Of a DNA stretch of 64,000 nt, positions 5,935 to 41,891 are shown in pieces. The notes below the pieces were generated by a model that was given only the letters and a program-made list of their open reading frames with translations, had not been told where the DNA came from and searched no databases. The position numbers and the translations under genes are program-made. Each line of letters begins with the position of its first letter. Position 1 is the first letter of the stretch. The stretch is from Escherichia phage APECc02, in sequence record NC_041869.1; one strand, 5' to 3'.

Positions 5935-5938
5935 AATT

Positions 5939-6427: not shown

Positions 6428-6432
6428 TTTTT

Positions 6433-6508: not shown

Positions 6509-6509
6509 T

Positions 6510-6584: not shown

Positions 6585-6595
6585 AATAATAAATA

Positions 6596-23213: not shown

Positions 23214-23246
23214 ATCTAGATGGTATCGGAGTGTCCTGGAGAGGTT

Positions 23247-24524: not shown

Positions 24525-25528
24525 TGGCAGAGTACAGACGTAGAACATGGCGATTATTGTTTGGTCGTCCTGTAGAACATGGCGGCAAATCAAAAACCAA
24601 TATCCCAAAATCTGTTGAAAAGAAAGGGGAGAGTGATTCCGGAGTTTATGAAGTTAGCTCGGACACTGGTGCTGCCAATATAGAGTTTGACATACAAAAG
24701 GACAATACCAAAGAGCCAAACAAAGGTTATGTGACAGTTTACAACCTGTCTGACGATACAGTTAACTATCTGGACATGCATCAGGCTGATGCCCTTGCAG
24801 TTATGTTTGAAGCTGGCTATGATGATGAGAACCAGTTAATATTCTCCGGAACTGTGGAGTTTGTTGAAGACAGATGGGAAGGTCCGACCAGAAAAACTAA
24901 GTTCATCTTCGGGGATGGCACTGAGAACATCATTAAGTGCCAAAGCACAAGATCTTATCAGAAAGGCACACCTCTGAACTCTGTGCTTAATGACCTGCTG
25001 AAGGATATGAACTTGCCAAAAGGTAGGGTTGTTGGTTTTGGAAACCAGACTTTGCAATACTCTATGGCTTTCTCTGGAAACACTGCAGAGAACCTCCGCA
25101 GGTTTGCAAGGCTGACCAACTCCACATTTAGCGTTCAGGATGGGGCTTTGTATTGGACCAAGGTTGGAAAAAGGTTCAAAGACTCTGTGTTTGAAATAAG
25201 TGCAGAGTCTGGGATGCACGGATCTCCTACCCCTAAAAACCCAGAACCTGCTAAAAAACGAAAAGCTAAAGCTGCTGCCAAAGGTGGTTCGACATCTAAA
25301 AAGAAAAAGAAAAACCCGAGAGAGGATGTTGGCCTTACTGTAACCACATGCCTTAACGGAGCTATCCTCCCAGAGTCCACTATTTATCTTAAAAGCAAGC
25401 AATATACAGGCTTCTATAAGGTGATCACGGTGCATCATAAGGGCACCATAGAAGGTGGTGATTACACTACAGAGCTTGGCCTTGGGGAAACAGTGGGTGG
25501 AGTTGTTGACAAAACTGAGGAGGTATAA
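24524..25528 (+). CDS. hypothetical tail/baseplate protein
   Basis: 334 aa; Lys-rich internal linker. Confidence 0.4.
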   Translation: MAEYRRRTWRLLFGRPVEHGGKSKTNIPKSVEKKGESDSGVYEVSSDTGAANIEFDIQKDNTKEPNKGYVTVYNLSDDTVNYLDMHQADALAVMFEAGYDDENQLIFSGTVEFVEDRWEGPTRKTKFIFGDGTENIIKCQSTRSYQKGTPLNSVLNDLLKDMNLPKGRVVGFGNQTLQYSMAFSGNTAENLRRFARLTNSTFSVQDGALYWTKVGKRFKDSVFEISAESGMHGSPTPKNPEPAKKRKAKAAAKGGSTSKKKKKNPREDVGLTVTTCLNGAILPESTIYLKSKQYTGFYKVITVHHKGTIEGGDYTTELGLGETVGGVVDKTEEV

Positions 25529-26205
25529 TGGCAATAAATAGGAAAGATGCTGCTGTAAGATCCTTTATAGAAAAAATAATGAGGGACTACCACACCAGTA
25601 TCAGGGCCAGAGTTGTCAGTGTAGACTACAGTATCCCTTCTGCAGCCGTGCAGCCAATTGCTGAAACCACGTTTGATGACGGGGATGTAGAGAGATACCC
25701 TCTTATCTATGACGTTCCAATTCAGGTGATGTCTGCAAACAGCGGAAAGGCAAGGTTAACACTCCCTATTAAGGCTGGAGATGTTGTAGGATTGCAGTTT
25801 TCAGAGAGAAATGAAAACAATAACGACGATCAACAAACTCACGGTCTGTTTCCGGGGTGGGCAATAACCTCTGTTCATTCAGACTCAAACGCTTTACAGA
25901 TCGATCCTGATAACGTAGAGTTATGGAATGATAGGGTTTATTTTAAACTGACACCTTCTGGAGATTTTGAGCTTCAAACACCCGGTGGGACATTACGGTG
26001 CGACAGCAGCGGGGAGTTTTCTTTCACTAACGGGGCTGCCAATTTGCGAGCTGCTGTGGATGGGAATATCAGAATGAATGGTGCTACAATAGACCCATCT
26101 GGTAGAATTATAACTGCTGCTGGCGTGGATTTGGATTCATTCTATGCAGAATATAAAGGTCATACCCACTCTTGCCCTGATGGCGAGACAAGTGGACCAC
26201 ACTAA
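25528..26205 (+). CDS. baseplate spike-like protein (gpV-like apex motif)
   Basis: C-terminal GHTHSCPDGETSGP resembles the HxH metal-binding apex of P2 gpV-type spikes. Confidence 0.45.
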   Translation: MAINRKDAAVRSFIEKIMRDYHTSIRARVVSVDYSIPSAAVQPIAETTFDDGDVERYPLIYDVPIQVMSANSGKARLTLPIKAGDVVGLQFSERNENNNDDQQTHGLFPGWAITSVHSDSNALQIDPDNVELWNDRVYFKLTPSGDFELQTPGGTLRCDSSGEFSFTNGAANLRAAVDGNIRMNGATIDPSGRIITAAGVDLDSFYAEYKGHTHSCPDGETSGPH

Positions 26206-26217
26206 TAGAGGGCTTTA

Positions 26218-26934
26218 ATGGCTACGCTTTATAGTGATATATTGATGGACCCACAGACAGGCGATTTGGCGATAGACAAAGGTCTTGAGTTGATAGATTC
26301 AAACCAGGTAAGTCTGCGCCAGCGCTTGTGGATGAGGTTTAATACGTGGAAGGGGAGCTGGTACTTTGACGAACTGTTTGGCTTCCCTTATATGGACTTT
26401 CTCAGTAAGAAGGTCATGAAGACTGTTCTTGATAACAAGATCATGGAAGTGGCAAGACAAGAGCCGGATGTGCTAAACATCATAAACTTCCAGTCTACCA
26501 TGGACCGAAGATCGAGAACATACCAAGCGTTCTTTGAGGTTGTTACCAAAGAGAACGAGATTGTAAGGCTGGCTTTCGTAGGTCTTGATCAGTTCACCTA
26601 CCCACAACCTGATTCTGGGACAACCTCTCTCTGTGATGATGAGGGTTGGATTAAGTGGGCTAATAAACTGTACTACCTGATCAACTTCAGATTACCTAGA
26701 ACCGGAGATGCCACATGGTGGAACCAGTATGCTGGTCCTGAGATGGAAAACCCGATCCCTGTAGGCTCTCTGTTGACTCAGGATAAAGATCTGCTGATGA
26801 CTGAGGCAGAACAAACCATTAACCGCAATACCTGGACGCTTGCTCCAGATGAGCGCGAATACTCTGGTGTTATTGCTACCTCCAATGATGAGGCTATTGC
26901 CAACCAGTCTGGTCGTGCTATTGATGTTAACTAA
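26218..26934 (+). CDS. baseplate wedge-like protein (gp25/W-like N-terminal domain, extended)
   Basis: N-terminal pattern GDLAIDKGLELIDSNQVSLRQRLWMRFNTWKGSWYFDELFG typical of small baseplate wedge proteins. Confidence 0.4.
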   Translation: MATLYSDILMDPQTGDLAIDKGLELIDSNQVSLRQRLWMRFNTWKGSWYFDELFGFPYMDFLSKKVMKTVLDNKIMEVARQEPDVLNIINFQSTMDRRSRTYQAFFEVVTKENEIVRLAFVGLDQFTYPQPDSGTTSLCDDEGWIKWANKLYYLINFRLPRTGDATWWNQYAGPEMENPIPVGSLLTQDKDLLMTEAEQTINRNTWTLAPDEREYSGVIATSNDEAIANQSGRAIDVN

Positions 26935-26943
26935 GGAGAAATC

Positions 26944-27612
26944 ATGGCTGTAGCTTATCCTACAATACCAATTCCAGATCTTGAAGATGCAGAAACAGTC
27001 CTGAGTGATGACTTCTTGGTTGTCAACCAGACTGATGGGACAAGAAAGGCTAAGATTGACGATGTTGTCAACGATCTTAGCATTACTAAGATAGTCTATT
27101 TCACAGAAGGTGGTTATCTTAAGAGCAAGAAGGACTTTGCTTATGACCCAGAGACTAAGCGCTACTACACGTGGAACGGGGATTATCCTAAAATAATCCT
27201 ACCAGACTCCACTGTAGAGGGTGCTGGGGGCGTGTCTGCAAATGCCTGGTCTGTTTTTGGTGAGCTTGCTGCAACTTCTTCTGGCAGAATAGTTGATTAC
27301 GGATCTATCGGTGGTCAGCTTGATATGGATCTTGAAGTTGCGGATACCTTTAAGGTTCGACTAACTTCAAATACTACAATCTCTTTTGAAAATCAAACAG
27401 AAGGTCTTGAAGGGGTGGCGAGAACTATAACCGTATGCATTACTCAGACCTCTGGCGGCAACAAAGTCTATTGGCCTGGTAATGTTAAATGGTCCTACGG
27501 AAGAGATCCTATCCTAACATTTACAGCTGGTGCAACAGATATTTTCAAGTTGGAAACCTACGACAACGGGTTAACTTGGTACGGGGCACTGATTATCGCA
27601 GGAGCTATCTAA
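26944..27612 (+). CDS. tail fibre-like protein sharing N-terminal anchor domain with 30247 gene
   Basis: N-terminal 100 aa alignable with N-terminus of the 1479-aa fibre. Confidence 0.45.
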   Translation: MAVAYPTIPIPDLEDAETVLSDDFLVVNQTDGTRKAKIDDVVNDLSITKIVYFTEGGYLKSKKDFAYDPETKRYYTWNGDYPKIILPDSTVEGAGGVSANAWSVFGELAATSSGRIVDYGSIGGQLDMDLEVADTFKVRLTSNTTISFENQTEGLEGVARTITVCITQTSGGNKVYWPGNVKWSYGRDPILTFTAGATDIFKLETYDNGLTWYGALIIAGAI

Positions 27613-27613
27613 G

Positions 27614-30211
27614 ATGCGTATTCAACATAACATTGATAACGTATTTCAGATGATTGAGGGGCACAGGAAGTGCCTCGATAACAACACAGGTATTACCAAC
27701 ACCCCTACACAAAATAAGCTAGTAAACCCTGATGGTCTTATAGCTGCAGGGTGGGCAGGTAATAAGATAAATAATGATTGGGCAATGCATGAGTCCCAAG
27801 CTGTGTTGATTCTGGGATACATTGAAGCATACAGGGCATCGAAAAGCGATTTCTATCTGGATAGGGCAAAAGATGCTTGGGAAGCTTACAATAGCCATCT
27901 TCTGGGTGCATATGCAGTAGAAAGTAAAATGCAAAGATTGTCCCACTACCCTCTATCCACAGATGGGGTTCCATCACATGGTGGGTTTAAAGATGTGGTG
28001 GTGTCTTTTACCAACGGTAGAGGAAAAATCCCAGCTGGATCTCCGACATGGGGGGAATACCTTGACAAGGCATTCCAAGCGTATAACGGTGTGTTAGGAA
28101 GAAACACTGTAGACTCTGATGTTTACGGTGGCACAGATGCTAACCCAGATTGGACAACATCCGGATTAAGTTGGTGGGTTGAGTGGTACATAGCATGGGA
28201 TGGTAACCGCTATTGGGCTAACGGTAGCATAGCCGACAGTGGTCATACGTCTGTAGAGTTCGGCACAATCCAATTACAAGATAAGGGTGTTACAGGAAGC
28301 CACAAGGTAACCTATTGTGTGAGATTACCTCAAGAGCAAGGTGGATCGGTGATACCTGCAGGATCCCCTGTAATTGTAAATCCCATAAACGTGGTTGCAG
28401 ATAATCAGGCCCCAGAGTTGGACGGGGAAGAAATGTGGTGTGACGCTTGTTATCAACTCTACACCTTGACAGGTGAGGAAAAGTATTACACCGCGTTTAA
28501 ACAGTCTTACAACAAATTGCTTAATTTCAGTGATATAAACGCCTACGACAAACTGTTTAGGAAGACCACGTTGATTAAGGCACCGTTTACAGATGGTACT
28601 TGTCTTGTTGCAGGAACAGTTCCTGTCATGAGCAGGGACAGTGACGGGTATATCAATTTTAGAATGAACGCACGCCAGCCTTGCGAAATAATTCAAAAAG
28701 GGACTACATACAAAATAGGCAGAGATGCTGAAATTGTTATGAATTTCGGAGGAGAAGGGGTTCTGTTCCAGCCACATTTCATCCTTAATGATGGCAACAA
28801 TAACAAAAAACAGTACAGGATAGGGGTTCCTTTTGGAGGGGCAGGGGTAACAGAAATAGTTGCCAAGGTTACTGATTTCGTAGAGGTAGTTGGTAAAGAC
28901 GGTAATCCGTATCTCTTACCTAAAGAGGAAAACATTGCCGTAAGCGGTGGTGCTGGTGTTAGTATGCAGTATGATACCGACATCTACAACCACTCTGACA
29001 ACTTCACCCGTTGTAATATAGCAAGAGGTAAAGTAACTTTCAATTTTGGAAGAGAGATTTCTTTAAACTCAGTAACTTATCGATCAGATGATGAGATGGT
29101 AAGGGTCAAATTTCTTGACAAAGATAGGTGGTTATGGTATGCTGATCTATATGCCACTAATGGACAATGGATAACAGAAACTCTTACTCTAGGAGACTTC
29201 AAACTAGATCCGACACAACCTCATCACACCGAAGAAGAGATTAAACCTTTCTTTGCTAATCCTAAGGGGCTCACCTCTGTAGATTTCAGCCTAAGCGACA
29301 GACAGATAGGTAATGGCTTGTTTGATCTATATTGCGTCAACACACTGCCGCAATTTTATATTGCAGATAGGGATGCTTATCTAATCTGGTTTAGCGTATG
29401 GATGGCAAGCAAGACAGAATCAACCGCTAAGGTTGGCGATTGCTATGTCAGAAACTACAAGCAAGGTGCATACAGGCACACACCAGGTGTGTTCCCTGCC
29501 GGAAAGGTGATAGATAAGGAAAACTATCTCTTAGAGGAAAAGCCAAATTGGCCCTACCCTGGCATGCAATACCCAGCAGTATACTGCATGGGTGCAGAAA
29601 ACATAGATCGCCATAGATTGTCAAATACAATAGGCTTTCTGTATGACGCTCAAGTCTGGTATAATAATACATTTAAGACAGAGGGTCCAGTTGCCTCGCG
29701 TTATGTATGGCAGAGAGGTAATGAAGGGCTGACTGGTTGGTGGGAGATGGTAGATAACTCTAAGCTCCAGTCAAGATCTTTTGTTGCTGCGTGCCGCACA
29801 ATCTATGAGCTCAAGAAACATAAAGAACCTGTTGATGAAAGATTATTCCTGTTCTGCCAGAAATGGGCATGGTTCCTCAACAGATTCCAGTCATCTCATT
29901 CAGGAAATCTACCTACAGACTTTAACACCTCTGGGGGATATTCTTATCAGGACAGAGGAGACAGGATGTGGGTGGTAGGTGAATGGCTTGCAGGTTGCTG
30001 CTGGCTAGGTCTGTGCGGGTATTCAGAGACAATACCTCAAATAGATATTGTTGTAGAGGCCTGTGTGAAGCTACTGCAAAAGCACCACTTCATTAATGGG
30101 GATAATGTTTTAAACGGCTGCTGGGCAGTTTCTGATCCGGTTGGCTATCACTCTGGCGAAATCCTTCGCGGTCTGGGCCTTTATGCTCAATACCGTGGAT
30201 TGTACCTTTAA
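27614..30211 (+). CDS. large tail-associated protein, possible glycan-degrading domain
   Basis: 865 aa; no confident motif. Confidence 0.4.
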   Translation: MRIQHNIDNVFQMIEGHRKCLDNNTGITNTPTQNKLVNPDGLIAAGWAGNKINNDWAMHESQAVLILGYIEAYRASKSDFYLDRAKDAWEAYNSHLLGAYAVESKMQRLSHYPLSTDGVPSHGGFKDVVVSFTNGRGKIPAGSPTWGEYLDKAFQAYNGVLGRNTVDSDVYGGTDANPDWTTSGLSWWVEWYIAWDGNRYWANGSIADSGHTSVEFGTIQLQDKGVTGSHKVTYCVRLPQEQGGSVIPAGSPVIVNPINVVADNQAPELDGEEMWCDACYQLYTLTGEEKYYTAFKQSYNKLLNFSDINAYDKLFRKTTLIKAPFTDGTCLVAGTVPVMSRDSDGYINFRMNARQPCEIIQKGTTYKIGRDAEIVMNFGGEGVLFQPHFILNDGNNNKKQYRIGVPFGGAGVTEIVAKVTDFVEVVGKDGNPYLLPKEENIAVSGGAGVSMQYDTDIYNHSDNFTRCNIARGKVTFNFGREISLNSVTYRSDDEMVRVKFLDKDRWLWYADLYATNGQWITETLTLGDFKLDPTQPHHTEEEIKPFFANPKGLTSVDFSLSDRQIGNGLFDLYCVNTLPQFYIADRDAYLIWFSVWMASKTESTAKVGDCYVRNYKQGAYRHTPGVFPAGKVIDKENYLLEEKPNWPYPGMQYPAVYCMGAENIDRHRLSNTIGFLYDAQVWYNNTFKTEGPVASRYVWQRGNEGLTGWWEMVDNSKLQSRSFVAACRTIYELKKHKEPVDERLFLFCQKWAWFLNRFQSSHSGNLPTDFNTSGGYSYQDRGDRMWVVGEWLAGCCWLGLCGYSETIPQIDIVVEACVKLLQKHHFINGDNVLNGCWAVSDPVGYHSGEILRGLGLYAQYRGLYL

Positions 30212-30215
30212 CATA

Positions 30216-30235
30216 GGGGGCTGTTTGCCCCCTTT
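30216..30235 (+). terminator. hairpin GGGGGC-TGTTT-GCCCCC with short T tract
   Basis: Weak T-run. Confidence 0.35.
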
Positions 30236-30246
30236 CAGGAGAAAGA

Positions 30247-34686: not shown

Positions 34687-35018
34687 TGAATATTTTTACC
34701 CTTGGATTCACTGACAGGGAGGACTTTAACGGTTTCATGGATGAAATCGGCTTTTATGAGAATGAGGTGTTGCAAAACACCCTTCTTGTAGAGGTTGTCG
34801 GGTTCATTTACACAGAGACTGGAGACACTTATGAGGCCGAAGATGAATTTGGCAACATGGTTGTCTACCCGGTTTGCGAGAAAAGTGAATTGTTTTATGT
34901 TAACGTTCTGGCTCTGGACGAGGATGCAGAAAACATCGTCTCTAAAAGCGGAAAAGTTGTAGATCCGATAAGGTTGAACATGTTCGACCCATCAGTATCC
35001 ACCTTGGAAGCACTTTAA
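34686..35018 (+). CDS. hypothetical protein (possible fibre chaperone)
   Basis: 110 aa, overlapping start with fibre stop. Confidence 0.35.
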   Translation: MNIFTLGFTDREDFNGFMDEIGFYENEVLQNTLLVEVVGFIYTETGDTYEAEDEFGNMVVYPVCEKSELFYVNVLALDEDAENIVSKSGKVVDPIRLNMFDPSVSTLEAL

Positions 35019-35025
35019 AGTATTG

Positions 35026-35050
35026 CCCTCGCTTCGGCGGGGGTTTTTTG
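35026..35050 (+). terminator. rho-independent terminator
   Basis: CCCTCGC-TTCG-GCGGGGG then TTTTTTG. Confidence 0.7.
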
Positions 35051-35086
35051 TTTGTATTGCGTATTAACTTAAAATCTGGTAAAATA

Positions 35087-35095
35087 ACTATCATA
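35087..35095 (+). promoter_or_regulatory. extended -10 element TGGTAAAAT
   Basis: Same motif as other late promoters in window; no clear -35. Confidence 0.3.
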
Positions 35096-35116
35096 ATTGT
35101 TTAACCTGGAGGCATA

Positions 35117-35707
35117 ATGTTTTTATGGGAAAGGCCTAGATACCTTCCAGATATTAGATTAGAGTTGCTGGCAGATATTGTCACGTTTAAAAGTCCGTTT
35201 ACAGGTAAAACGCAAAAAGTAACCTATGCCACGCCTAACTGGAAAGGCACTTTGACGGTCTCCAATATCAGCGAGTCACAGTTACTAGAGCTTAAGAGCT
35301 TTGTTGATCAGGTGTATAAAGATGGGAACATCTTTCTTATTAAAACTTACGGTCACTCGGTAACAGCTAACGAGCCAATCGCCCTTGGGCCTACTGGTAA
35401 CGACGATTTTTTGAAGACTGTTGGGTGGGAGCCAAACAGAGACATAGCCAGAGCCGGGGATAAAATATCTGTCAATGATGAATTGAAAGTGGTAACAGCT
35501 CCAGTGCGTAGCGATGGTGTTGGGTCTGCTGTTATAGGCATATCTCCAAGACTTAGAAAACCTATTGCCGCAGGGGACACCATGAAGATAATAACTCAAT
35601 CTCCGAAGGGTAGGTTTCATATCAGAGATATTTATAAAATTAAGCAAAAAGTCGATGCTATGCAAAAAGGTGATAATATAGTTATCAACTTCTTTGAGGA
35701 TTTCTAA
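35117..35707 (+). CDS. tail tip protein (lambda M-like position)
   Basis: 196 aa; first gene of L/K/J-like block. Confidence 0.35.
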   Translation: MFLWERPRYLPDIRLELLADIVTFKSPFTGKTQKVTYATPNWKGTLTVSNISESQLLELKSFVDQVYKDGNIFLIKTYGHSVTANEPIALGPTGNDDFLKTVGWEPNRDIARAGDKISVNDELKVVTAPVRSDGVGSAVIGISPRLRKPIAAGDTMKIITQSPKGRFHIRDIYKIKQKVDAMQKGDNIVINFFEDF

Positions 35708-36260
35708 GATGATCAGAGCGCCATTAGATAATTTATTTCTTGAAAAGCTGGAGCTTGATGGTGTTGAGATCTTAATTGCTGCAAAGCTGGAGCTACCGAC
35801 AGGAACTGTCAGGGTGTGCTCAGGCACTGGTGTTGTAGTAATTGAGGGGCAACATTTTATAGGGATAGGTGGATCAGCAACATTAACCGCTGTGTCTGAG
35901 AAAGATGCCACCAACTTCGGATCTGTGGTAGCGACATTGAACGGGTTTGATCCTAAGTATGTGGGTGATCTGCTAAAGACTGAGTATTCTGGTTGTCGTG
36001 CCACGTTGTACATTACCGCTATGGAGAATGGTCTGCCTGTTACAACTAATGGCTTGTTTGACGGCCTTATAACAGATATGGCTATTCAGACAGGTGAGAA
36101 TAGCGCTTTGTCCATATCCATCTCTTCCATCTTTAACAGTTGGTTAAGAGGTTTTCCTTATCGGTACACGGAGGAAAGCCACAGCTCAAGAAACGATAAT
36201 GACAGATTTTTTAAATATGTGGATCAGGTGGCGAGCCGCCCGATCATTTGGGAGGTTTAA
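35694..36260 (+). CDS. minor tail protein L-like
   Basis: 188 aa; N-terminal pattern LFLEKLELDG...VRVCSGTGVVVIEGQHFIGIG resembles lambda gpL family. Confidence 0.45.
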   Translation: MRISKMIRAPLDNLFLEKLELDGVEILIAAKLELPTGTVRVCSGTGVVVIEGQHFIGIGGSATLTAVSEKDATNFGSVVATLNGFDPKYVGDLLKTEYSGCRATLYITAMENGLPVTTNGLFDGLITDMAIQTGENSALSISISSIFNSWLRGFPYRYTEESHSSRNDNDRFFKYVDQVASRPIIWEV

Positions 36261-36685
36261 TGAGCACACACCCTCGTTTAGTGGATTGGCAAGAAAGATT
36301 GTGGAAAGTGTTTGACGAAGAGGCCACCATACCTTTTGAATGGGGATTCCACGATTGTTGCACCTTTGCAGCTAAGTGTGTTGATGCCCAATACGGAACA
36401 GATTTTCTTTCTAACTTCGAAGGAACGTATAAAACAGAGTTGGAAAGCAAAAGATGGTGCATGCTTCGTTTCAAAACTACACACCTGCCTACTATTTTTG
36501 ATCTCTTTATGACTCGACTGGATACTCCTAAACAGGTTCAGCGTGGCGATATTGTTATTTTCGAAGGTCTGAACGGGCTCACCGCTGGTGTGTTCTGGAA
36601 CAACCAGATTTGGGCGAAAGGTGATAAAGGGGTCTTTATGTTCGACATGAAAGATTCTATCGTTGTTGATGTCTGGAGGTATTAA
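36260..36685 (+). CDS. tail assembly protein K-like (NlpC/P60-like Cys motif)
   Basis: ATG 36260 with GGGAGG RBS; HDCCTF and GDIVIFEG motifs. Confidence 0.45.
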   Translation: MSTHPRLVDWQERLWKVFDEEATIPFEWGFHDCCTFAAKCVDAQYGTDFLSNFEGTYKTELESKRWCMLRFKTTHLPTIFDLFMTRLDTPKQVQRGDIVIFEGLNGLTAGVFWNNQIWAKGDKGVFMFDMKDSIVVDVWRY

Positions 36686-39600
36686 TGCCAATTGCAATGA
36701 TTGATAACATCGTTGCTTCTGCAAGATCTTCAAGTTATGACTGGAACGCATCCAAGGCAGCTCTGGCTGACAGCCTGAACACTGTGACCACCAGAACTTT
36801 GGATAAGATTTTTGAGGGCAACAAATCTTACAGAAGTCAGCAAGATAGACAAAAGCTTCTCAGATCTTCTGCTGCACCTTGCTCTGTAGTGTATGGAAAG
36901 ACACGCACATCTGGATTGCTTGCGTTTTTGGAGCAGGATAGCGACAGAACCCTCCATTGTGCTATTGTTCTTGCCAATCACCCTCTGGAAGGTATAGAAG
37001 ATATACTTATCGACGGTAATCCTATTTCCTCGTATGGAGATCTGGTATCGTGGGAGCTACATAACGACAGAAAAACATCTGATCCTTTCATGGGTACACA
37101 CTGCCCATCATGGTCACCTGACATGATAGGTAGAGGGATCAGTTGGCTACGTGCCAGCTTCAGGTTTGACCCTAACAAGTTTCCTTTTGGGTTGCCAAAC
37201 GTTACACTCGTTAAGGTTGGTAAAAAATGCTATGATCCTCGCATCAGTAAAGAGGTGTATACCAATAACGCGGCCTTGGTGATTCTAGACTATTTAAGAA
37301 CGTACCTTAAATGTCCTGACGAAACCATCAACTGGGAGTCCTTCAAGGAGGCTGCTAACATATGCGACGAGGCGGTAAAAAACGCAGACGGAACCAGTGA
37401 GCGCCGATACACCATTAATGGCGAGTTTGACATGGACGAGGCTCCGGCAAGCATTATGGCAGAAATGCTGAAAGCTTGTGGCGCAGATCTCAGCTATGTA
37501 GCTGGTAAGTATGGTTTGCTGGTTGGTGCATACTATGGCCCGGCAACAATGACGCTGAGTGAGGATTGTGTCTGTGGTGAGGTCAAGATCTATCCGGAAG
37601 CCTCATTTGACAAAAGATCCAACACAATAACTGGCAGATTCACTAGTCCGACCAAAGGGTATTCTGAAACAGATTTTCCATCAGTGTTTGTCCCAGAGTG
37701 GATAGAGAAGGATGGAGAAAGAAAGATAATCGATATAGACTATCGCTTTGTTACCAGTCCTTATCAAGCTCAGCGTGTTTCTGCAATCTTCCTAAGACGT
37801 GCCAGAGCTGGCAGGATTATTGAAGTCACCTGCAATATGCGAGGTTTCAAATTTAAACCTGGTCGTTACGTTACAATGGACCTCCCAAGTATTGGTATAG
37901 TGGGCCAAGAAATGAGAGTTCTTGAATGGGAGTTTACCAAAAAGGGTGGTGTCAAGGTAAAACTTCGTCAAGATGCTAAAGAGTGGAATGATGCCACAGG
38001 ACAACTTCCGGATTCTGGCGATGTAGATATTCCAATATCTCCATCTGGTGTAGCTCAACCGCAAAACTTCAGATATTCCGTTCTCCAAGCTGGAGAAGTA
38101 ACTCACGGTGTTTTGGCTTGGGACAACGTTGGGACCTACGCTCAAAATATTGTGCAGGTAAGAAAGAACGGAGAGATTGTTTGGACAGCACAAACAGTTG
38201 AGCAGTTTGTCCGAGTAGAAGGCTTGACCAAAGGGTCATACACAGCAACCGTGGTTGCAACATCTTATAAAGGTGGCGTATCTCCGGAAGCATATTGTGA
38301 GTTCAACATTCAGGCACCTGAAGCTCCTGTTTCTGTGGAGGTTAAACAGGGATACTTTGCTATTACCCTGATCCCGCACAGCAGAGACTTGGCTAGTGTA
38401 AGCACCCAGTACGACTTTTGGACATCTGGGATGACAAGATTGCCAGATACCAGTGATGCAACCGTTACTTCAAAAGCCACTCGTATGGGTGTTGGTTCAA
38501 CTTGGACATCTGAAGGTCTGCAGAACGATAAGATTTATTACTGGTATATCAGGACAACAAATGCTTTTGGTTCATCTGCTTTTGTGGAGTGTGCAGCCCA
38601 CTGTTACACATCCATAGAAGATCTTATGCCACAGATTGATGCTGAGTTCAAAAAGACAGAGACTTATAAAGAGCTTACCGCCAATCTTGATAATGCAGTC
38701 AAGGAAATGGATAAAAATGTTGGTGCAGTCAATGACCGTGTTACTAGCATTTTTGAAGAGCTTGGGGATACAATAGAGGGTGTTGTCAGAGAGACGACAG
38801 AAAAATTTACAGGGGTTAATGGAGAAATTTCTGCCCTTAACAGTAAGCTGGTAGCAGCTCAGCAATCCTTTGACGATAAACTTGCAGCAGAGTCTGGTAG
38901 GCTTGGGTCACTAATCGAGACAACAAATAGATCAACCGTTGATCTTGTTAATCGTAAAACTCAAGCATTGAGTGAGCAAATAACTGCAACGCAAGGTACT
39001 CTGCGGGAAGAGTTGAAGAACACTGAGAGCAAACTTAACTCCTCTATTCAAGAAACCAACAAGGCAACAACCGATCTGCTAAATAAGACAACGGAAGCTA
39101 TTAAGCAGGATCTGGTGGCAGCTACAGGGAAGATCACCAAGCTGGAAGATGATGTGCAGAAAGAGGTTGCCAATCTGCAAGCATCTATTCAAGAAACTAA
39201 TAGTACAACAGTTGATCTTGTTAATAATACAGCCACAGCGATCCGTCAAGAACTTACCTCTGCAAAACAAGAAATTGTTGACGAAATGGGTAATATTGAT
39301 GAGCTCAGGGCTACAGTATCTAATACCTCTAAAGCTGTAACAACACTTGAGGGTAAAATAGATGCTCAGTGGGGAGCTAAGATTCAGGTAGACTCCGCAG
39401 GGAATAAATATGTTGCAGGTATCCAGCTGGGGATGGAAGGATCTGGGGGCCAAGTTCAATCCTACTTCATGGTTAGTGCAAACAATTTTGCGGTATACAA
39501 CCCCGGAAATGGAACAGCAACCCTTGCTTTCGCAATCAAGAACAACCAAGCGTTCTTGAAAGACGCTTTTATAGAGAATGGCACGATCTCCTCTGCCAAG

Positions 39601-40284
39601 ATCGCACAAGAAATTTCGTCAAACAACTACGACGGCAACGGGTACCATAAATACGGTTGGTATATTAACAAGAACGGGCACGCCCAATTCATGGATGTGT
39701 GGGTGAAAGGCAACATCAACGCCAGTTCTGGTAACTTCACAGGGGCAGTTAACGCCACTAGTGGTACCTTCCGTGGGGATGTTTATGCCAATAATGGTAG
39801 CTTTAGAGGCACCATAGATGCAACCGGAGGTACCTTCCGTGGTCGTGTAGAGGCTTCTGTTATCCGCGCTAACCAGTTCGAAGGTGCAATTGTTGCACAC
39901 AGGACTTACGGGGATTGTGCCCCAGTATATAACTCCCAGCAAAGGGTTTGCCGTTGGAGGTGGAGATACGTAGATAACGTTTCAGGTCAGGGTAAGAACG
40001 TAACATTCTTCTTTAAACTGAATGGTACTCTTGCCAGCTCCCAACTGAATGCATGGATAGCTGGTCATCAGATCCTTGCTGGCAAGAAGTATTTTAACGA
40101 CAACAACGGCATGTGTGCGGTAGGGATAACAGGTCTGGGTGAACAAACTATAGACATTGTTATCGAGATTTACACACCGTGGTCAACGTCGAGCGTGACA
40201 GGTGTCACAATCTCCTGTCCTACTGTGATAGTAAGTCGTTCAAACTCTAGCTTCCAGGGACCTTGGAACGAGTCTCACGACTAA
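36685..40284 (+). CDS. host specificity protein J-like central tail fibre
   Basis: 1199 aa; segments QGYFAITLIPH, IYYWYIRTTNAFGSSAFVE, KYVAGIQLGMEG align with lambda gpJ (recalled from memory, not searched); C-terminal G(S/T)FRG repeats. Confidence 0.65.
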   Translation: MPIAMIDNIVASARSSSYDWNASKAALADSLNTVTTRTLDKIFEGNKSYRSQQDRQKLLRSSAAPCSVVYGKTRTSGLLAFLEQDSDRTLHCAIVLANHPLEGIEDILIDGNPISSYGDLVSWELHNDRKTSDPFMGTHCPSWSPDMIGRGISWLRASFRFDPNKFPFGLPNVTLVKVGKKCYDPRISKEVYTNNAALVILDYLRTYLKCPDETINWESFKEAANICDEAVKNADGTSERRYTINGEFDMDEAPASIMAEMLKACGADLSYVAGKYGLLVGAYYGPATMTLSEDCVCGEVKIYPEASFDKRSNTITGRFTSPTKGYSETDFPSVFVPEWIEKDGERKIIDIDYRFVTSPYQAQRVSAIFLRRARAGRIIEVTCNMRGFKFKPGRYVTMDLPSIGIVGQEMRVLEWEFTKKGGVKVKLRQDAKEWNDATGQLPDSGDVDIPISPSGVAQPQNFRYSVLQAGEVTHGVLAWDNVGTYAQNIVQVRKNGEIVWTAQTVEQFVRVEGLTKGSYTATVVATSYKGGVSPEAYCEFNIQAPEAPVSVEVKQGYFAITLIPHSRDLASVSTQYDFWTSGMTRLPDTSDATVTSKATRMGVGSTWTSEGLQNDKIYYWYIRTTNAFGSSAFVECAAHCYTSIEDLMPQIDAEFKKTETYKELTANLDNAVKEMDKNVGAVNDRVTSIFEELGDTIEGVVRETTEKFTGVNGEISALNSKLVAAQQSFDDKLAAESGRLGSLIETTNRSTVDLVNRKTQALSEQITATQGTLREELKNTESKLNSSIQETNKATTDLLNKTTEAIKQDLVAATGKITKLEDDVQKEVANLQASIQETNSTTVDLVNNTATAIRQELTSAKQEIVDEMGNIDELRATVSNTSKAVTTLEGKIDAQWGAKIQVDSAGNKYVAGIQLGMEGSGGQVQSYFMVSANNFAVYNPGNGTATLAFAIKNNQAFLKDAFIENGTISSAKIAQEISSNNYDGNGYHKYGWYINKNGHAQFMDVWVKGNINASSGNFTGAVNATSGTFRGDVYANNGSFRGTIDATGGTFRGRVEASVIRANQFEGAIVAHRTYGDCAPVYNSQQRVCRWRWRYVDNVSGQGKNVTFFFKLNGTLASSQLNAWIAGHQILAGKKYFNDNNGMCAVGITGLGEQTIDIVIEIYTPWSTSSVTGVTISCPTVIVSRSNSSFQGPWNESHD

Positions 40285-40292
40285 CCTTTAAA

Positions 40293-40318
40293 GCCCCGCT
40301 TCGGCGGGGTTTATTTTT
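40293..40318 (+). terminator. rho-independent terminator
   Basis: CCCCGC-TTCG-GCGGGG then TTTATTTTTAT. Confidence 0.7.
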
Positions 40319-40327
40319 ATGCTCAGA

Positions 40328-40356
40328 TTGACTATTGTTACAAAATTTGGTAAAAT
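40328..40356 (+). promoter_or_regulatory. promoter TTGACT-17-TAAAAT (TGGTAAAAT)
   Basis: -35 40328-40333, -10 40351-40356. Confidence 0.5.
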
Positions 40357-40389
40357 ACCTTGTAGAGATTTTCATACCGGAGGAGTGAC

Positions 40390-41880
40390 GTGGCTAAGTA
40401 TGGATTGACAGAGGCTGGTTTCGTTATACCAACCCTAAATGACCTAATCGTTGAAACTAAGCAAAGCCTGATCCGTGCTTTTGGCGAAAACTTCAACGTA
40501 CAGAGTAACTCCGTTGCAGATAAGCTGACCACTATCTTCAACGAGCGAGAGTATCAACTTATTCTTATGGCAGCATCTGTATACGCATCACAGACGCTGT
40601 ATGGGGCAGAAGGTATTTATCTGGATGAGCTTCTTGGAAGACAGGGTATTTACCGAAGAGGCCGTTCTAAATCATCAGGTACCTGCCAGTTGACGATCAA
40701 CACAACTGTGCCGTACAATATGATTTATGATTCCAAAACTTATACGCTGGATAGTGGCAACTTTGTTCTTAGCAATGATGTGCAAGTGGCAGGGAATCTT
40801 ATTGCTCACAGAATAAATGCTCCAGACCTGAGGATTGGTAAATACAACTTTCAAATTACCAACCAGACAGATGGAAGTATCAAAACAAAAAGTTTGGTTT
40901 TAACAGATAAGGCTCTGGACTCTTCTGATCTGCCAAGCTTTTACGGAGAGATTAAGCAATTCATTGTCGATAATACAACCCTGTTGAACGACGATTTGAT
41001 TCAGATCGATATGTTGACAGGAACGTTGTGGATAGGGTACAATTCGAATCTTGATCAAGTTGGACTTAATAGTAGGGTAGATTTCAGAGTATCCCCGATT
41101 GTAGGGGAAAGAACTATCACCCTGGATGTTATCGCTAACGAGGCTGGTGAGCTGTCAAGAGAGGCAGAAACCGTGACAACAATGTCACCTACTCCCAGTG
41201 GATTTATCAAGCTTACCAACAGAGAAAGATTCAATGAGGGCAGGGATGTTGAGAAAGACTCAGAGTATCGCTTAAGAGCTTCCAGCACAAAACAGTTAAC
41301 ATCTAAGGCTACCCGTCCTGCAATCCTTAGCGCTGTAAGCGAGGTGAAAGGTGTTGAGAAAGTGAGAGTGTTCTCTAACAATACCGATAAAACTGATGCT
41401 AAAGGTATACCTCCTTACAAGTTCCAAGTGGTTGTGTTTGGTGGTGCAACGGAGGACATTTGCCAAGCACTTTACCAAACTATAGCCTGTACGAACAGGA
41501 CTTATGGTAATATTTTCTACGATGTCACTACATCTGACGGTCAAACTGAAAGAATTTATTACTCCAAGGCAAATACCTACCGCTTGGATGTAAGAATTAC
41601 CTACTCCGGTGCTGCGCTTTCCACAACCGAAAAAGATGCCATTGTAGAGGCTCTTTTGCAGGTTGTTAACGGACTGGATGTTGCAGATACGTTATACAAT
41701 ATCCAATTGGTCGGTGCTGCATCCGCTGCTGTGTCAATAGGCAGATTTAATAGACTGGTAATTCAAGTTAAATCCGTAGGAGCTTCTGATGAAGCTTACA
41801 CTACAAACGATATTGTTGCGAACATGACCGAGGTGTTTGACCTCGACGAAAGTAATATAACTTTCCAACAAACTATTTAA
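40390..41880 (+). CDS. baseplate J-like/tail protein (putative)
   Basis: GTG start; segment GIYLDELLGRQGIYRRGRSKSSGTCQLT resembles baseplate J family signature. Confidence 0.4.
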   Translation: MAKYGLTEAGFVIPTLNDLIVETKQSLIRAFGENFNVQSNSVADKLTTIFNEREYQLILMAASVYASQTLYGAEGIYLDELLGRQGIYRRGRSKSSGTCQLTINTTVPYNMIYDSKTYTLDSGNFVLSNDVQVAGNLIAHRINAPDLRIGKYNFQITNQTDGSIKTKSLVLTDKALDSSDLPSFYGEIKQFIVDNTTLLNDDLIQIDMLTGTLWIGYNSNLDQVGLNSRVDFRVSPIVGERTITLDVIANEAGELSREAETVTTMSPTPSGFIKLTNRERFNEGRDVEKDSEYRLRASSTKQLTSKATRPAILSAVSEVKGVEKVRVFSNNTDKTDAKGIPPYKFQVVVFGGATEDICQALYQTIACTNRTYGNIFYDVTTSDGQTERIYYSKANTYRLDVRITYSGAALSTTEKDAIVEALLQVVNGLDVADTLYNIQLVGAASAAVSIGRFNRLVIQVKSVGASDEAYTTNDIVANMTEVFDLDESNITFQQTI

Positions 41881-41891
41881 GGCGGCGAGAT

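What the first reader, a model, noticed from the sequence alone, without database searches (positions are those of the whole stretch)
25528..41880. Mixed tail-tip gene content: lambda L/K/J-like block plus contractile-type baseplate-like genes
Seen in sequence: 35694..40284 encodes proteins that align by eye with lambda gpL, gpK (HDCCTF) and gpJ (QGYFAITLIPH, YYWYIRTTNAFGSSAFVE, KYVAGIQLGMEG). The same operon also encodes a protein ending GHTHSCPDGETSGP (P2 gpV-type spike apex motif), a gp25/W-like wedge N-domain and a baseplate J-like protein. The region is punctuated by internal terminators and TGGTAAAAT promoters. Inference: either an unusual hybrid tip architecture or modular acquisition of fibre cassettes; my family assignments rest on remembered motifs and could be partly wrong.
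Basis: inference. Interest (0 to 1): 0.55.

Follow-up and report, generated by a model that had tools for sequence, protein, structure and literature searches.

The report
Siphophage tail-tip cassette inside a myophage
This rV5-like contractile-tailed E. coli phage has a complete baseplate of its own and also carries a conserved, intact four-gene tail-tip set of the kind that normally caps a non-contractile tail, so a tail tip appears to be kept in use without the tail tube it normally sits on.

Summary
The window is a Vequintavirus (rV5-like myophage, about 97% nt identity to many isolates). It encodes a full contractile-tail hub and baseplate: tube initiator, plug, hub, phi92-gp138-type spike ending GHTHSCPDGETSGPH, gp25-like sheath initiator and two wedge proteins.

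Between the sheath initiator and the wedge genes lies a variable fibre slot. Inside it, 35117-40284 is a four-gene cassette: distal tail protein (Dit), a gpL-like hub domain, an NlpC/P60-fold gpK-like protein and a gpJ-like protein.

- It has its own late promoter and is flanked by terminators.
- It is collinear with the module that follows the tape-measure gene in Queuovirinae siphophages (33/40/45/54% aa identity). Lambda is only a distant relative.
- Sister lineages (Mydovirus, phi92-like phages, W70) lack it.
- dN/dS of 0.00-0.06 matches the core baseplate genes.
- The J homologue was detected, weakly, in rV5 virions.

"Modular acquisition" is therefore well supported. Where the complex sits is unresolved. 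I favour a peripheral fibre-like appendage over an axial cone. I found no paper describing the module. Verdict: a new variant of a known kind, of moderate to high interest.

The parts
23220..24131 (+). Myophage tube initiator (its own Dit-like ring protein)
   Evidence: Pfam Dit_like PF21821 E=2.6e-22. Homologues in Ro1, W70 and a phi92-like phage. Annotated as tail tube initiator in JeffSchatz.
24144..24524 (+). Baseplate plug/spacer
   Evidence: Pfam Pam3_gp18 PF22479 E=8e-19. Corresponds to phi92 gp136.
24524..25528 (+). Myophage baseplate hub (gp27/Mu gp44 class)
   Evidence: phrog_196 'baseplate hub' E=8e-84. 55-57% identical to the hubs of the J-less relatives Ro1 and W70.
25528..26205 (+). 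Central spike of the phi92 gp138 / P2 gpV type, with an HxH apex motif (GHTH at aa 211-214)
   Evidence: PF18352 E=1.4e-9. phiTE 9cuy_Y E=5e-62 and phi92 gp138 3pqi E=2.5e-18. Motif coordinates 26158-26199.
26218..26934 (+). gp25-like sheath initiator with a Vequintavirus-specific C-terminal extension of 34 aa
   Evidence: phrog_120 E=1e-20. PF10934 on a 92%-identical homologue. Extension shown.
26944..30211 (+). Two fibre or adaptor genes shared with phi92-like phages (222 aa with Tail_spike_N; 865 aa)
   Evidence: PF18668 E=2e-10. 42% and 35% identical to phi92-like W22 proteins.
30247..34686 (+). Chimeric 1479-aa lateral fibre: a Tail_spike_N anchor on a shaft and tip related to Queuovirinae lateral fibres
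   Evidence: PF18668 at aa 46-103. aa 169-981 and 1060-1473 are 33-44% identical to Queuovirinae lateral fibres. The C-terminal allele differs in a divergent lineage.
34686..35018 (+). 110-aa ORF linked to this fibre allele (possible fibre accessory protein)
   Evidence: 28-38% identical to the small ORF just downstream of the lateral fibre in four Queuovirinae loci. Absent where the fibre ends in Peptidase_S74.
35025..35044 (+). Intrinsic terminator closing the fibre unit (rV5 t041)
   Evidence: 8-bp stem with 6 GC pairs plus a T-run. Listed for rV5. Conserved in the divergent lineage.
35077..35085 (+). Late promoter motif TGGTAAAAT driving the cassette (rV5 P040)
35117..35707 (+). Cassette gene 1: siphophage-type distal tail protein (Dit2, 196 aa)
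   Evidence: phrog_1302 'distal tail protein' E=5e-50. 33% identical to Seuratvirus Dit, E=2e-30. Family profile hits a T5-like pb9 Dit, E=7e-4. dN/dS 0.01-0.02.
35709..36260 (+). Cassette gene 2: split-off hub domain I protein (gpL-equivalent, 183 aa, no Fe-S domain)
   Evidence: 40% identical to the Seuratvirus protein, E=8e-48. Profile hits T5 pb3 aa 36-179, E=1.4e-8. AF2 pLDDT 92; Foldseek hits T5 pb3, lambda gpL, RcGTA and T1. 0-1 nonsynonymous against 10-39 synonymous changes.
36260..36685 (+). Cassette gene 3: DUF6950, an NlpC/P60-fold gpK-like protein (141 aa). Cys is retained; both family-consensus His are replaced
   Evidence: PF22262 E=2.7e-33. 45% identical to the Seuratvirus protein. 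AF2 pLDDT 94.7; Foldseek hits MepS, LytE and RipD. Column counts.
36685..40284 (+). Cassette gene 4: gpJ-like hub plus central fibre (1199 aa). Layout: hub aa 1-490, FN3 493-652, variable helical stalk 660-880, tail-tip domain 878-1017, conserved C-terminal domain 1040-1199
   Evidence: An rV5 gp37 peptide, GYSETDFPSVFVPEWIEK, found in the rV5 virion preparation is identical to aa 325-342 here.
40291..40312 (+). Intrinsic terminator closing the cassette
   Evidence: 9-bp stem with 6 GC pairs plus a T-run; best hit of the scan. Conserved in the divergent lineage.
40328..40356 (+). Promoter for the wedge genes (TTGACT, 17 nt, TAAAAT, with TGGTAAAAT; rV5 P036)
40390..42578 (+). Baseplate wedge proteins W1 (Baseplate_J, 496 aa) and W2 (228 aa, with a Vequintavirus-specific C-terminal extension of about 18 aa)
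   Evidence: PF04865 E=4e-9, phrog_6 and phrog_4056. 50-60% identical to Ro1 and W70, about 30% to the phi92-like phage. Extension shown.

Best explanation
**Shown.** The window is a Vequintavirus. Its contractile tail has a complete, conventional central hub and wedge baseplate, homologous to those solved for phi92 and phiTE.

The variable fibre slot between the sheath-initiator gene and the wedge genes holds a self-contained late transcription unit at 35077-40312. It consists of a promoter, four genes and a terminator.

The four genes are the tail-tip module that, in non-contractile-tailed phages, follows the tape-measure gene and builds the distal end of the tail:
- a distal tail protein (Dit);
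- a hub-domain-I protein (gpL-equivalent);
- an NlpC/P60-fold gpK-like protein;
- a gpJ-like protein: hub domains II-IV, FN3 domains, a central fibre and a distal domain.

The nearest relatives are Queuovirinae siphophages of E. coli. The cassette was acquired in the Vequintavirus lineage and has been kept under purifying selection as strong as that on the core baseplate.

**Inferred.**
- The J and L proteins form a trimeric closed cone capped by a Dit ring, as in lambda and T5. Here the cone is detached from any tail tube or tape measure.
- It is mounted at the baseplate periphery as one of the fibre sets (probably six copies). Its long, length-variable coiled-coil stalk presents a genus-conserved distal domain to a conserved surface ligand.
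- The K-like protein, lacking its catalytic histidines, acts as an assembly factor rather than a peptidoglycan hydrolase.
- The proximal components (Dit and L) were remodelled to dock on the baseplate instead of on a tube.
For: **Identity of the phage and its own baseplate.**
-, together with the phi92 and phiTE structures.

**Cassette homology and collinearity.**
- In the Seuratvirus KS_S4 and the Nonagvirus FritzHoffmann, the tape-measure gene is followed by genes of 194, 194, 144 and 1077 aa.
- BLASTP to the window proteins: 33% (2e-30), 40% (8e-48), 45% (6e-47) and 54% (E=0).
- In 80 IMG/VR loci found with the K-like family, 75, 76 and 80 also carry Dit, L and J relatives. 73 have an ORF of at least 550 aa within 6 kb upstream. 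None has a relative of this phage's sheath, tube, hub, spike or wedge proteins.

**Fold and profile evidence.**
- L is equivalent to T5 pb3 hub domain I and lambda gpL, consistent with the published domain equivalence.
- K has an NlpC/P60 fold.
- Dit matches a T5-like pb9.
- J matches lambda J, and its N-terminal half matches T5-like hubs and GTA megatron.

**Lineage-specific acquisition.**
- The cassette is absent from Ro1, W22 and W70.
- Matches to the J N-terminal half fall at 95% or above (115 Vequintavirus records) or below 60% (siphophages), with nothing between.
- It is retained, with the same terminator and promoter brackets, in a lineage only 61-92% identical.

**Function retained.**
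- dN/dS is 0.00-0.06, against 0.005-0.05 for hub and wedge genes.
- The rV5 J homologue gp37 was detected by virion MS.

**Hints for a peripheral position.**
- The genes lie among fibre genes, not beside the hub and spike genes.
- Hub and spike show no length change compared with J-less relatives. The sheath initiator and W2 have genus-specific C-terminal extensions.
- Identity to Queuovirinae falls from distal to proximal parts (J 59, K 45, L 40, Dit 33%). Within Queuovirinae all four are 61-72%.
- Length-normalised spectral counts of gp37 relative to sheath suggest about 13-21 copies rather than 3. This rests on 5 spectra and is very weak.
- The J stalk varies in length, giving proteins of 1199, 1279 and 1381 aa.
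Against: - No structural data exist for any Vequintavirus baseplate. The solved relatives phi92 and phiTE lack the cassette.
- Only J has been seen in virions. Dit, L and K have not, and the rV5 MS data are shallow (19 proteins).
- No docking partner for a Dit ring away from a tail tube is known in any phage.
- The divergence gradient could instead reflect a mosaic origin.
- The SI and W2 extensions could serve the other genus-specific fibre.
- Genetic screens on K-12 found only LPS and NGR functions as receptors for these phages, so no role for J is visible there.
Confidence: 0.55

Rival explanations
1. Axial hybrid tip. The Dit ring stacks under the myophage hub and the J/L cone encloses the spike. 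The virion then carries a siphophage-type central fibre on a contractile tail, with one cone per virion that must open or be shed before the spike acts.
For: - In every known context the Dit-hub-J complex sits on the tail axis.
- The cassette has no gpI-like plug gene and no tape measure of its own. The spike could fill the cone lumen instead.
- The distal domain of J is conserved across the genus, as expected for a single terminal-receptor binder.
Against: - Hub and spike are the same length as in J-less relatives and 49-59% identical to them, with no added docking element.
- In phi92 and phiTE the inner wedge domains pack around the hub and spike, leaving little room.
- The genes are separated from the hub and spike genes by 9 kb of fibre genes and have their own promoter.
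- The stalk length varies by up to about 180 aa between strains.
- The crude MS ratio suggests more than 3 copies.
Confidence: 0.2
2. Only the J protein is structural, as a lateral fibre. Dit, L and K are assembly or chaperone factors, or are not incorporated, so no complete tip complex exists in the virion.
For: - Only gp37 (J) was detected in rV5 virions.
- Lambda gpK is not a virion component.
- The K-like protein evolves fastest: 61% identity against 83-87% for the others in the divergent lineage.
Against: - J lacks hub domain I, which in lambda and T5 is needed to close the last ring with the hub domain II of J.
- L shows 0-1 nonsynonymous changes against 10-39 synonymous ones, and Dit has dN/dS 0.01-0.02. 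This is the level of structural baseplate proteins.
- The MS data set was too shallow to detect even the hub, spike or wedge proteins.
Confidence: 0.2
3. The similarity is superficial, or the cassette is a decaying relic of recombination with no present function.
For: - L, K and Dit give no BLASTP match to lambda L, K and M.
- K has lost its catalytic histidines.
Against: - E-values to siphophage homologues range from 1e-30 to 0.
- The fold matches are confident.
- The ORFs are intact in more than 100 genomes and in a lineage 61-87% identical.
- dN/dS is at most 0.06.
- A virion peptide was found.
Confidence: 0.03

Closest known systems
Tail-tip module of Queuovirinae siphophages (Seuratvirus and Nonagvirus, e.g. 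KS_S4, FritzHoffmann/Bas20): TMP, Dit, 'tail protein', DUF6950, J-like tip protein
   Same: - Same four genes in the same order, with nearly the same sizes (194/194/144/1077 aa against 196/183/141/1199 aa).
- 33/40/45/54-59% aa identity.
- Same loss of the two His in the DUF6950 protein.
- The adjacent lateral fibre and the small ORF after it also have relatives here.
   Different: - In Queuovirinae the module follows the tape-measure gene and caps a non-contractile tail tube. Here there is no siphophage tube or tape measure.
- The host virion is a myophage with its own hub and spike.
- The cassette has its own promoter and terminators.
- The stalk of J is longer and variable, and the C-terminal domain is genus-specific.
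Phage lambda tail tip: gpM, gpL, gpK, gpI, gpJ
   Same: - Same logic of a split hub: hub domain I in a small protein, domains II-IV plus FN3, fibre and distal domain in J, with an NlpC/P60 protein encoded between them.
- J shares its FN3 and tail-tip domains at 30-31% identity.
   Different: - No gpI homologue.
- The L-like protein has no 4-Cys Fe-S domain and no PF05100 match.
- The K-like protein has no JAB/MPN domain and no catalytic His.
- Dit is a 196-aa pb9-type protein, not the 109-aa gpM.
- No pairwise similarity for L, K or M.
Phage T5 tail tip: pb9 (Dit), pb3 (hub), pb4 (central fibre)
   Same: - The Dit2 profile matches a T5-like pb9.
- The L-like profile and model match pb3 hub domain I.
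- The N-terminal half of J matches T5-like hub proteins weakly.
   Different: In T5 the hub is one polypeptide and the fibre is a separate protein. Here the hub is split and the fibre is fused to it.
RcGTA baseplate: g12 (Dit), g13 (hub), g14 (peptidase), g15 (megatron)
   Same: - Four-gene order Dit, hub-I, NlpC/P60, large hub protein.
- Foldseek hit of the L-like model to 6tba.
- The N-terminal half of J hits proteins annotated 'megatron' or 'gene transfer agent protein'.
   Different: RcGTA g13 carries an Fe-S cluster, and g15 lacks the J-type FN3 and fibre parts. In RcGTA the module again sits on a non-contractile tube.
Baseplates of the related myophages phi92 (Justusliebigvirus) and phiTE (Certrevirus), solved by cryo-EM
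   Same: Tube initiator, plug/spacer, hub, iron-type spike, sheath initiator, two wedge proteins and short fibres all have homologues here. The spike matches phiTE at E=5e-62.
   Different: Neither relative is reported with a Dit/L/K/J cassette. The phi92-like genome inspected lacks it. Their maps therefore cannot show where it sits.

Membership tests
Tip attachment protein J (lambda gpJ-like central fibre) | Paired FN3/Ig_J domains followed by the Phage_Tail_Tip fibre domain | tested here: met
   PF24489 E=2.8e-30, PF24421 E=3e-5, PF09327 E=3e-38. 8iyk_J E=1e-26.
Tip attachment protein J (lambda gpJ-like central fibre) | N-terminal hub domains II-IV (gp27/Tal-like) | tested here: inconclusive
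   - aa 48-503 are 57% identical to Queuovirinae J.
- Weak tblastn hits to T5-like hub proteins and to GTA megatron.
- The rV5 paper reports COG4733 and HHpred hits to Mu-type hubs.
- No structure model was made here.
Tip attachment protein J (lambda gpJ-like central fibre) | Encoded downstream of the tape measure in a non-contractile tail operon, closing the tail tube | tested here: not met
   - The gene lies in the fibre slot of a myophage, 13.5 kb downstream of the end of the myophage tape-measure gene, with the myophage's own hub and spike genes in between.
- Homologues elsewhere do follow a TMP-like ORF: 73 of 80 loci.
Lambda gpL (Phage_tail_L, PF05100) | Tube-like beta-sandwich equivalent to hub domain I | tested here: met
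   Profile against T5 pb3 aa 36-179, E=1.4e-8. Foldseek: T5 pb3 E=1e-6, 8iyk_L E=9e-5 with TMq 0.60.
Lambda gpL (Phage_tail_L, PF05100) | C-terminal four-cysteine [4Fe-4S] domain | tested here: not met
   There are only two Cys (C37, C101 in the 188-aa numbering) and none in the C-terminal 80 aa. The feature is described.
Lambda gpL (Phage_tail_L, PF05100) | Sequence-profile match to the family | tested here: not met
   No Pfam hit at E<=0.1. BLASTP against lambda gpL gave E=0.38.
Lambda gpK (JAB/MPN + NlpC/P60, C40 peptidase) | NlpC/P60 papain-like fold with the catalytic Cys in an x-D-C motif | tested here: met
   Foldseek hits to MepS, LytE and NlpC, E=1e-5, TM about 0.6. D32-C33 are invariant in 116 family members.
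Lambda gpK (JAB/MPN + NlpC/P60, C40 peptidase) | Catalytic histidines completing the triad | tested here: not met
   The family-consensus His at alignment positions 113 (95 of 116) and 116 (85 of 116) are Trp and Gln here. Position 113 is Trp in 7 of the 116 aligned sequences, and the Queuovirinae sequences read ILWTG / VLWTG there.
Lambda gpK (JAB/MPN + NlpC/P60, C40 peptidase) | N-terminal JAB/MPN domain | tested here: not met
   The protein is 141 aa and consists only of DUF6950. Lambda gpK is 199 aa and has HSHP near its N-terminus.
DUF6950 (PF22262) | Profile match above the curated cutoff | tested here: met
   115.3 bits against a cutoff of 27; E=2.7e-33.
Distal tail protein (Dit) of siphophages | Homology to characterised Dit proteins, and position as the first gene after the tape measure in relatives | tested here: met
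   phrog_1302 E=5e-50. The family profile hits a T5-like pb9, E=7e-4, collinearly over about 120 aa. It is the first gene after the TMP in KS_S4 and FritzHoffmann.
Distal tail protein (Dit) of siphophages | Hexameric ring stacked on a tail-tube ring | not testable with these tools
   Needs multimer modelling or cryo-EM. The phage encodes no siphophage tube protein.
phi92 gp138 / P2 gpV iron-loaded spike | N-terminal OB-type domain plus beta-helix, and a C-terminal HxH apex motif | tested here: met
   PF18352 E=1.4e-9. 3pqi E=2.5e-18, 9cuy_Y E=5e-62. GHTH at aa 211-214. Iron binding itself was not testable.
gp25 / sheath initiator | Profile match, and position after the spike gene | tested here: met
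   phrog_120 E=1e-20. PF10934 on a 92%-identical homologue. 25% identical (E=3e-14) to phi92 gp139 of W22, shown to be the sheath initiator.
Baseplate_J (P2 gpJ / T4 gp6 wedge) | Pfam PF04865 above cutoff; orthology to a solved wedge protein | tested here: met
   36.6 bits against a cutoff of 21.1. 31.5% identical (E=1e-64) to the phi92-type wedge protein.

The most novel reading that the evidence does not exclude
Vequintaviruses assemble a complete siphophage tail-tip complex (a Dit ring, an L trimer and a J trimer) that works without a tail tube or tape measure.

One version: it serves as repeated peripheral receptor-binding organelles on a contractile-tail baseplate. The less likely version: it is an axial cone around the spike.

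Its genus-conserved distal domain may bind a conserved surface component that knockout screens cannot see, for example an essential outer-membrane protein.

This would be the first case of a tail-tip complex redeployed as an accessory adsorption device. It would also be a natural example of grafting one tail type's host-recognition apparatus onto another.
Probability: 0.45. Interest if true: 0.75.

Novelty: new variant of a known kind. Interest (0 to 1): 0.62.

Why it matters
**Practical relevance.** rV5-like phages are among the most frequently isolated coliphages and are used in typing sets, food biocontrol and therapy cocktails. Which genes build their several fibre sets is still an open question. 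For phi92, fibre II remains unassigned.

**What this adds.**
- One 'tail fibre' gene turns out to be part of a whole four-gene siphophage tail-tip module. That changes what density to look for in maps and what to delete or swap in host-range engineering.
- It raises a structural question that can be tested directly: how does a Dit-hub-J complex assemble and anchor without a tube or tape measure?
- It documents transfer of an entire adsorption apparatus (tip complex plus lateral fibre parts) between siphophages and myophages that share E. coli as host.

**Status in the literature.** Automated annotations already label the genes 'distal tail protein' or 'central tail fiber J'. I found no paper that discusses the module.

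Tried and rejected
**Sequence comparisons that found nothing.**
- BLASTP of the L-, K- and Dit-like proteins against lambda gpL, gpK and gpM gave nothing.
- phmmer of the same three proteins against all PDB sequences also gave nothing.
- The DUF6950 profile against PDB sequences gave no hit. Only the fold search resolved that protein.

**Searches with little yield.**
- The single-sequence word-indexed search for the L-like protein returned only 3 proteins. The exhaustive representative search was needed, and it found 627 proteins at E<=0.001.

**Signals no better than chance.**
- The generic sigma-70 promoter scan found 35 sites against 33 expected. Only the specific TGGTAAAAT motif is informative.
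- The total terminator count (21 against 15.5) is barely enriched. The three strong + strand hairpins are what matter.
- Tandem Repeats Finder found no DNA repeat in the J stalk, so its length variation is not due to a simple DNA tandem array.

**Ideas considered and rejected.**
- The cassette is ancestral in Vequintavirinae: rejected, because it is absent from Ro1, W70 and phi92-like phages.
- The J distal domain is a hypervariable receptor-binding tip: rejected, because it is 93-100% conserved in nearly all genus records, with a lowest of 81%.
- The 110-aa ORF belongs to the cassette: rejected, because it travels with the fibre allele.

**Literature.** Eight literature searches and targeted reading found no description of the module. 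The rV5 MS data are too shallow for reliable stoichiometry.

Full report
**What the window is**

The region 25528-41880 matches more than 100 Vequintavirus (rV5-like) genomes over its full length, at 95-99% nucleotide identity in most of them. These are 131-140 kb myophages of E. coli. All genes of interest lie on the + strand in one long morphogenesis block.

**The contractile-tail set is real and complete**

Downstream of the tape-measure gene (20805-23141) lie the following genes.
- A tube initiator at 23220-24131 (Pfam Dit_like, E=2.6e-22).
- A plug at 24144-24524 (Pam3_gp18, E=8e-19).
- A hub at 24524-25528 (phrog_196, E=8e-84).
- A spike at 25528-26205. [quoted passage not shown]
- A gp25-like sheath initiator at 26218-26934 (phrog_120, E=1e-20; PF10934 on a 92%-identical homologue).
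- Further downstream, the wedge proteins at 40390-41880 (Baseplate_J PF04865, E=4e-9) and 41892-42578.

Every one of these proteins has a homologue in phi92 and phiTE, whose baseplates have been solved.

**The lambda-like set is real, but it is a four-gene cassette and lambda is not its closest relative**

*J-like protein.* The 1199-aa product of 36685-40284 has the Ig_J, Ig_J_second and Phage_Tail_Tip domains. It matches solved lambda gpJ at E=1e-26.

*L-like and K-like proteins.* The two small proteins upstream do not align with lambda gpL or gpK by BLASTP, and the L-like protein has no Pfam match.

*Where the J hub half is found.* A tblastn search with the N-terminal half of J found two groups and nothing in between. 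Vequintaviruses match at 95% or above. Siphophages of about 45-60 kb match below 60%, led by Queuovirinae at 50-57%.

*Collinearity with Queuovirinae.* In the Seuratvirus KS_S4 and the Nonagvirus FritzHoffmann, the tape-measure gene is followed by genes of 194, 194, 144 and 1077 aa. These are annotated as distal tail protein, tail protein, hypothetical protein and central tail fiber J. They match the window's 196-, 183-, 141- and 1199-aa products in the same order:
- 33% identity (E=2e-30)
- 40% (8e-48)
- 45% (6e-47)
- 54% (E=0; 59% over the first 660 aa)

. The unit therefore starts at 35117, not 35694.

**What each cassette protein is**

*Dit2 (35117-35707).* It matches phrog_1302 'distal tail protein' at E=5e-50. 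A profile of 88 family members matches the Dit of a T5-like phage collinearly (E=7e-4).

*L-like protein (35709-36260).*
- The exhaustive search found 627 relatives at E<=0.001, mostly 180-200 aa.
- Their profile hits residues 36-179 of T5-type pb3, which is hub domain I (E=1.4e-8).
- The AF2 model (pLDDT 92) retrieves T5 pb3, JBD30, lambda gpL (8iyk_L), RcGTA, T1 and Chi hub proteins.
- The lambda tail structure paper states that the N-domain of gpL is the hub domain I that gpJ lacks. Functionally this protein is therefore the gpL equivalent.
- It has only two cysteines and none of the C-terminal 4-Cys Fe-S domain, so it is not a gpL family member in the strict sense.

*K-like protein (36260-36685).*
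- It belongs to DUF6950 (E=2.7e-33).
- Its model (pLDDT 94.7) has an NlpC/P60 fold, with hits to MepS, LytE and RipD.
- The D-C pair of the HDCCTF motif is invariant in 116 relatives.
- The two histidines that most of the family conserves are Trp and Gln here. They are also missing in the Queuovirinae proteins.
- There is no JAB/MPN domain.
- I infer a non-catalytic role, possibly in assembly. Lambda gpK is not a virion component.

*No gpI.* There is no gpI homologue in the cassette.

**The canonical context of the module**

I examined 80 IMG/VR loci recovered with the K-like family.
- 75 carry a Dit relative, 76 an L relative and 80 a J relative.
- 73 have an ORF of at least 550 aa ending within 6 kb upstream.
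- The contigs are 5-82 kb long.
- None encodes a relative of this phage's sheath, tube, tube initiator, plug, hub, spike, sheath initiator or wedge proteins.

. The module belongs to non-contractile tails.

**Lineage-specific acquisition into a fibre slot**

Three related phages show what the slot holds elsewhere.
- The Mydovirus Ro1 (wedge protein 60% identical) has other fibre genes between the sheath-initiator and wedge genes.
- The phi92-like phage W22 also has other fibre genes there.
- W70, an unclassified member of the Vequintavirinae (wedge protein 50% identical), has nothing there.

None of the three has the cassette.

A divergent Vequintavirus lineage, only 61-92% identical in these proteins, keeps the cassette in the same place.

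The neighbouring genes also point to Queuovirinae.
- The 1479-aa fibre (30247-34686) carries a Vequintavirus-type Tail_spike_N anchor. Its shaft (aa 169-981) and tip (aa 1060-1473) are 33-44% identical to Queuovirinae lateral fibres.
- The 110-aa ORF after it matches the small ORF after those fibres.
- That ORF is missing in the lineage whose fibre ends in a Peptidase_S74 domain, so it travels with the fibre allele and not with the cassette.

**The cassette is a separate transcription unit**

- The best-scoring + strand terminator of the scanned region lies at 40291-40312 and another strong one lies at 35025-35044, immediately after and before the cassette.
- Each is followed by TGGTAAAAT, at 35077 and 40348.
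- The motif occurs 5 times in the window against 0.76 expected.
- These signals are the published rV5 late promoters P040 and P036 and terminator t041.
- The same brackets are conserved in the divergent lineage.
- The generic sigma-70 scan was not enriched (35 sites found against 33 expected).

**The cassette is functional**

- Pairwise dN/dS against four other Vequintavirus sequences is 0.01-0.02 for Dit2, 0.00-0.007 for L, 0.00-0.06 for K and 0.02-0.04 for J. The hub and wedge genes give 0.005-0.05.
- The rV5 virion MS data contain four peptides of gp37, the J homologue. One is the high-scoring tryptic peptide GYSETDFPSVFVPEWIEK, which is identical in the window protein.
- The data set is shallow, with only 19 proteins. 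The absence of Dit, L and K from it therefore says little.

**Internal anatomy of J across the genus**

- The first 660 aa and the last 300 aa or so are 96-100% identical between variants.
- The helical stalk (aa 660-880) drops to about 30-50% identity. Its length differs, giving proteins of 1199, 1279 and 1381 aa.
- The C-terminal 160 aa are 93-100% conserved in nearly all of the 115 Vequintavirus records (lowest 81%). Outside them there is only one weak match (30% identity), in a 60-kb siphophage.
- A conserved distal domain on a stalk of variable length is the reverse of the usual fibre pattern. It suggests a conserved ligand.

**Where the complex sits (inference)**

The central axis is already occupied by a conventional hub and spike. 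Several weak observations favour a peripheral position.
- The genes lie among fibre genes.
- Hub and spike show no insertion compared with J-less relatives. The sheath initiator (+34 aa) and wedge protein W2 (about +18 aa) have genus-specific, conserved C-terminal extensions.
- Identity to Queuovirinae rises from proximal to distal parts (Dit 33, L 40, K 45, J 59%). All four are 61-72% identical within Queuovirinae. This is what one would expect if the tube-facing end had to be remodelled.
- Length-normalised spectral counts of gp37 against sheath suggest more than ten copies, but this rests on five spectra.

An axial cone around the spike is not excluded. It would fit the missing plug and tape measure.

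Genetic screens on K-12 report only LPS-core and NGR functions as receptors for these phages. The ligand of J is therefore either dispensable there, redundant, or encoded by an essential gene.

**Comparison with what is published**

- The rV5 paper noted COG4733 and Mu-type hub similarity in gp37 and listed it among tail proteins.
- The LL12 and BASEL papers count it among the lateral fibres.
- Database annotations call the genes 'distal tail protein', 'tail protein' and 'central tail fiber J'.
- None of the papers I could search or read recognises a complete siphophage tail-tip module in these myophages, or asks how it is mounted.
- The recently solved relatives phi92 and phiTE are not reported with it, and the phi92-like genome inspected lacks it.

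**Verdict**

- The 'modular acquisition' reading is supported and made more precise: a Queuovirinae-type tail-tip cassette, with lateral-fibre parts alongside it, captured in the fibre slot.
- The architecture remains to be determined.
- I rate it a new variant of a known kind, with interest about 0.6.

Noticed in passing
window 42578-44650 (GMSHY at 43586-43600): The 690-aa protein after the wedge genes has the N4 gp65 'non-contractile tail sheath' N-terminal and TIM-barrel domains (PF23845 E=1e-79), plus a Calx-beta domain. It also contains the GMSHY motif that a 2026 preprint links to binding of the N4 glycan receptor. It is 42% identical to the phi92 gp142-type protein, but here it lies after the wedge genes rather than before them.
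   Followed up: partly
window 36260-36685: The DUF6950 / NlpC-P60-fold protein keeps the invariant Asp-Cys. It has Trp and Gln where 95 and 85 of 116 relatives have His, and the Queuovirinae homologues also lack both His. It is probably not a canonical peptidase, although some records annotate it as 'cell wall hydrolase'.
   Followed up: partly
window 38662-39324 (J aa 660-880): The helical stalk of the J-like protein is hypervariable in sequence and length between otherwise near-identical Vequintavirus J proteins (1199, 1279 and 1381 aa). The hub and the distal domain are 96-100% identical. No DNA tandem repeat explains this.
   Followed up: partly
window 30247-35018: The 1479-aa fibre is a chimera: a Tail_spike_N anchor joined to a shaft and tip related to Queuovirinae lateral fibres. 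The tip allele comes with the 110-aa ORF. Other Vequintaviruses (rV5, and loci L026-L028) instead have a Peptidase_S74 chaperone C-terminus and no such ORF.
   Followed up: partly
window 26830-26934 and about 42500-42578: The sheath initiator and wedge protein W2 carry C-terminal extensions (34 aa and about 18 aa). These are absent from Ro1, W70 and the phi92-like phage but conserved in the divergent Vequintavirus lineage. They are candidate docking peptides for the genus-specific appendages.
   Followed up: partly
hits H9-H11, H15, H21, H23 and others: Eighteen GenBank records named 'Campylobacter phage' (host given as C. jejuni) are about 97% identical over this region to E. coli Vequintaviruses. 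Most are about 135-140 kb long. The host label looks doubtful.
   Followed up: no
L027 (GCA_002973135.1 contig JZQG01000004, 73.7 kb) and Logan contigs L026, L028: An E. coli genome assembly contains a contig of a divergent Vequintavirus-like phage, 61-92% aa identical in the tail genes. Either lytic-phage DNA was present in the culture or the strain is in a carrier state.
   Followed up: no
window 5860-6672: A cluster of seven tRNA genes. One ARAGORN call (6329-6427) is 99 nt long with a four-base anticodon (atcc) and no assigned amino acid.
   Followed up: no
window 35694 / 35709 and 36248 / 36260: The mechanical ORF list starts the L-like and K-like genes at TTG codons (35694, 36248). Public annotations and the homologues fit the ATG codons at 35709 and 36260. 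The ATG at 35709 follows the Dit2 stop codon directly (TAAGATG), and the stop codon of K overlaps the start codon of J at 36685.
   Followed up: yes
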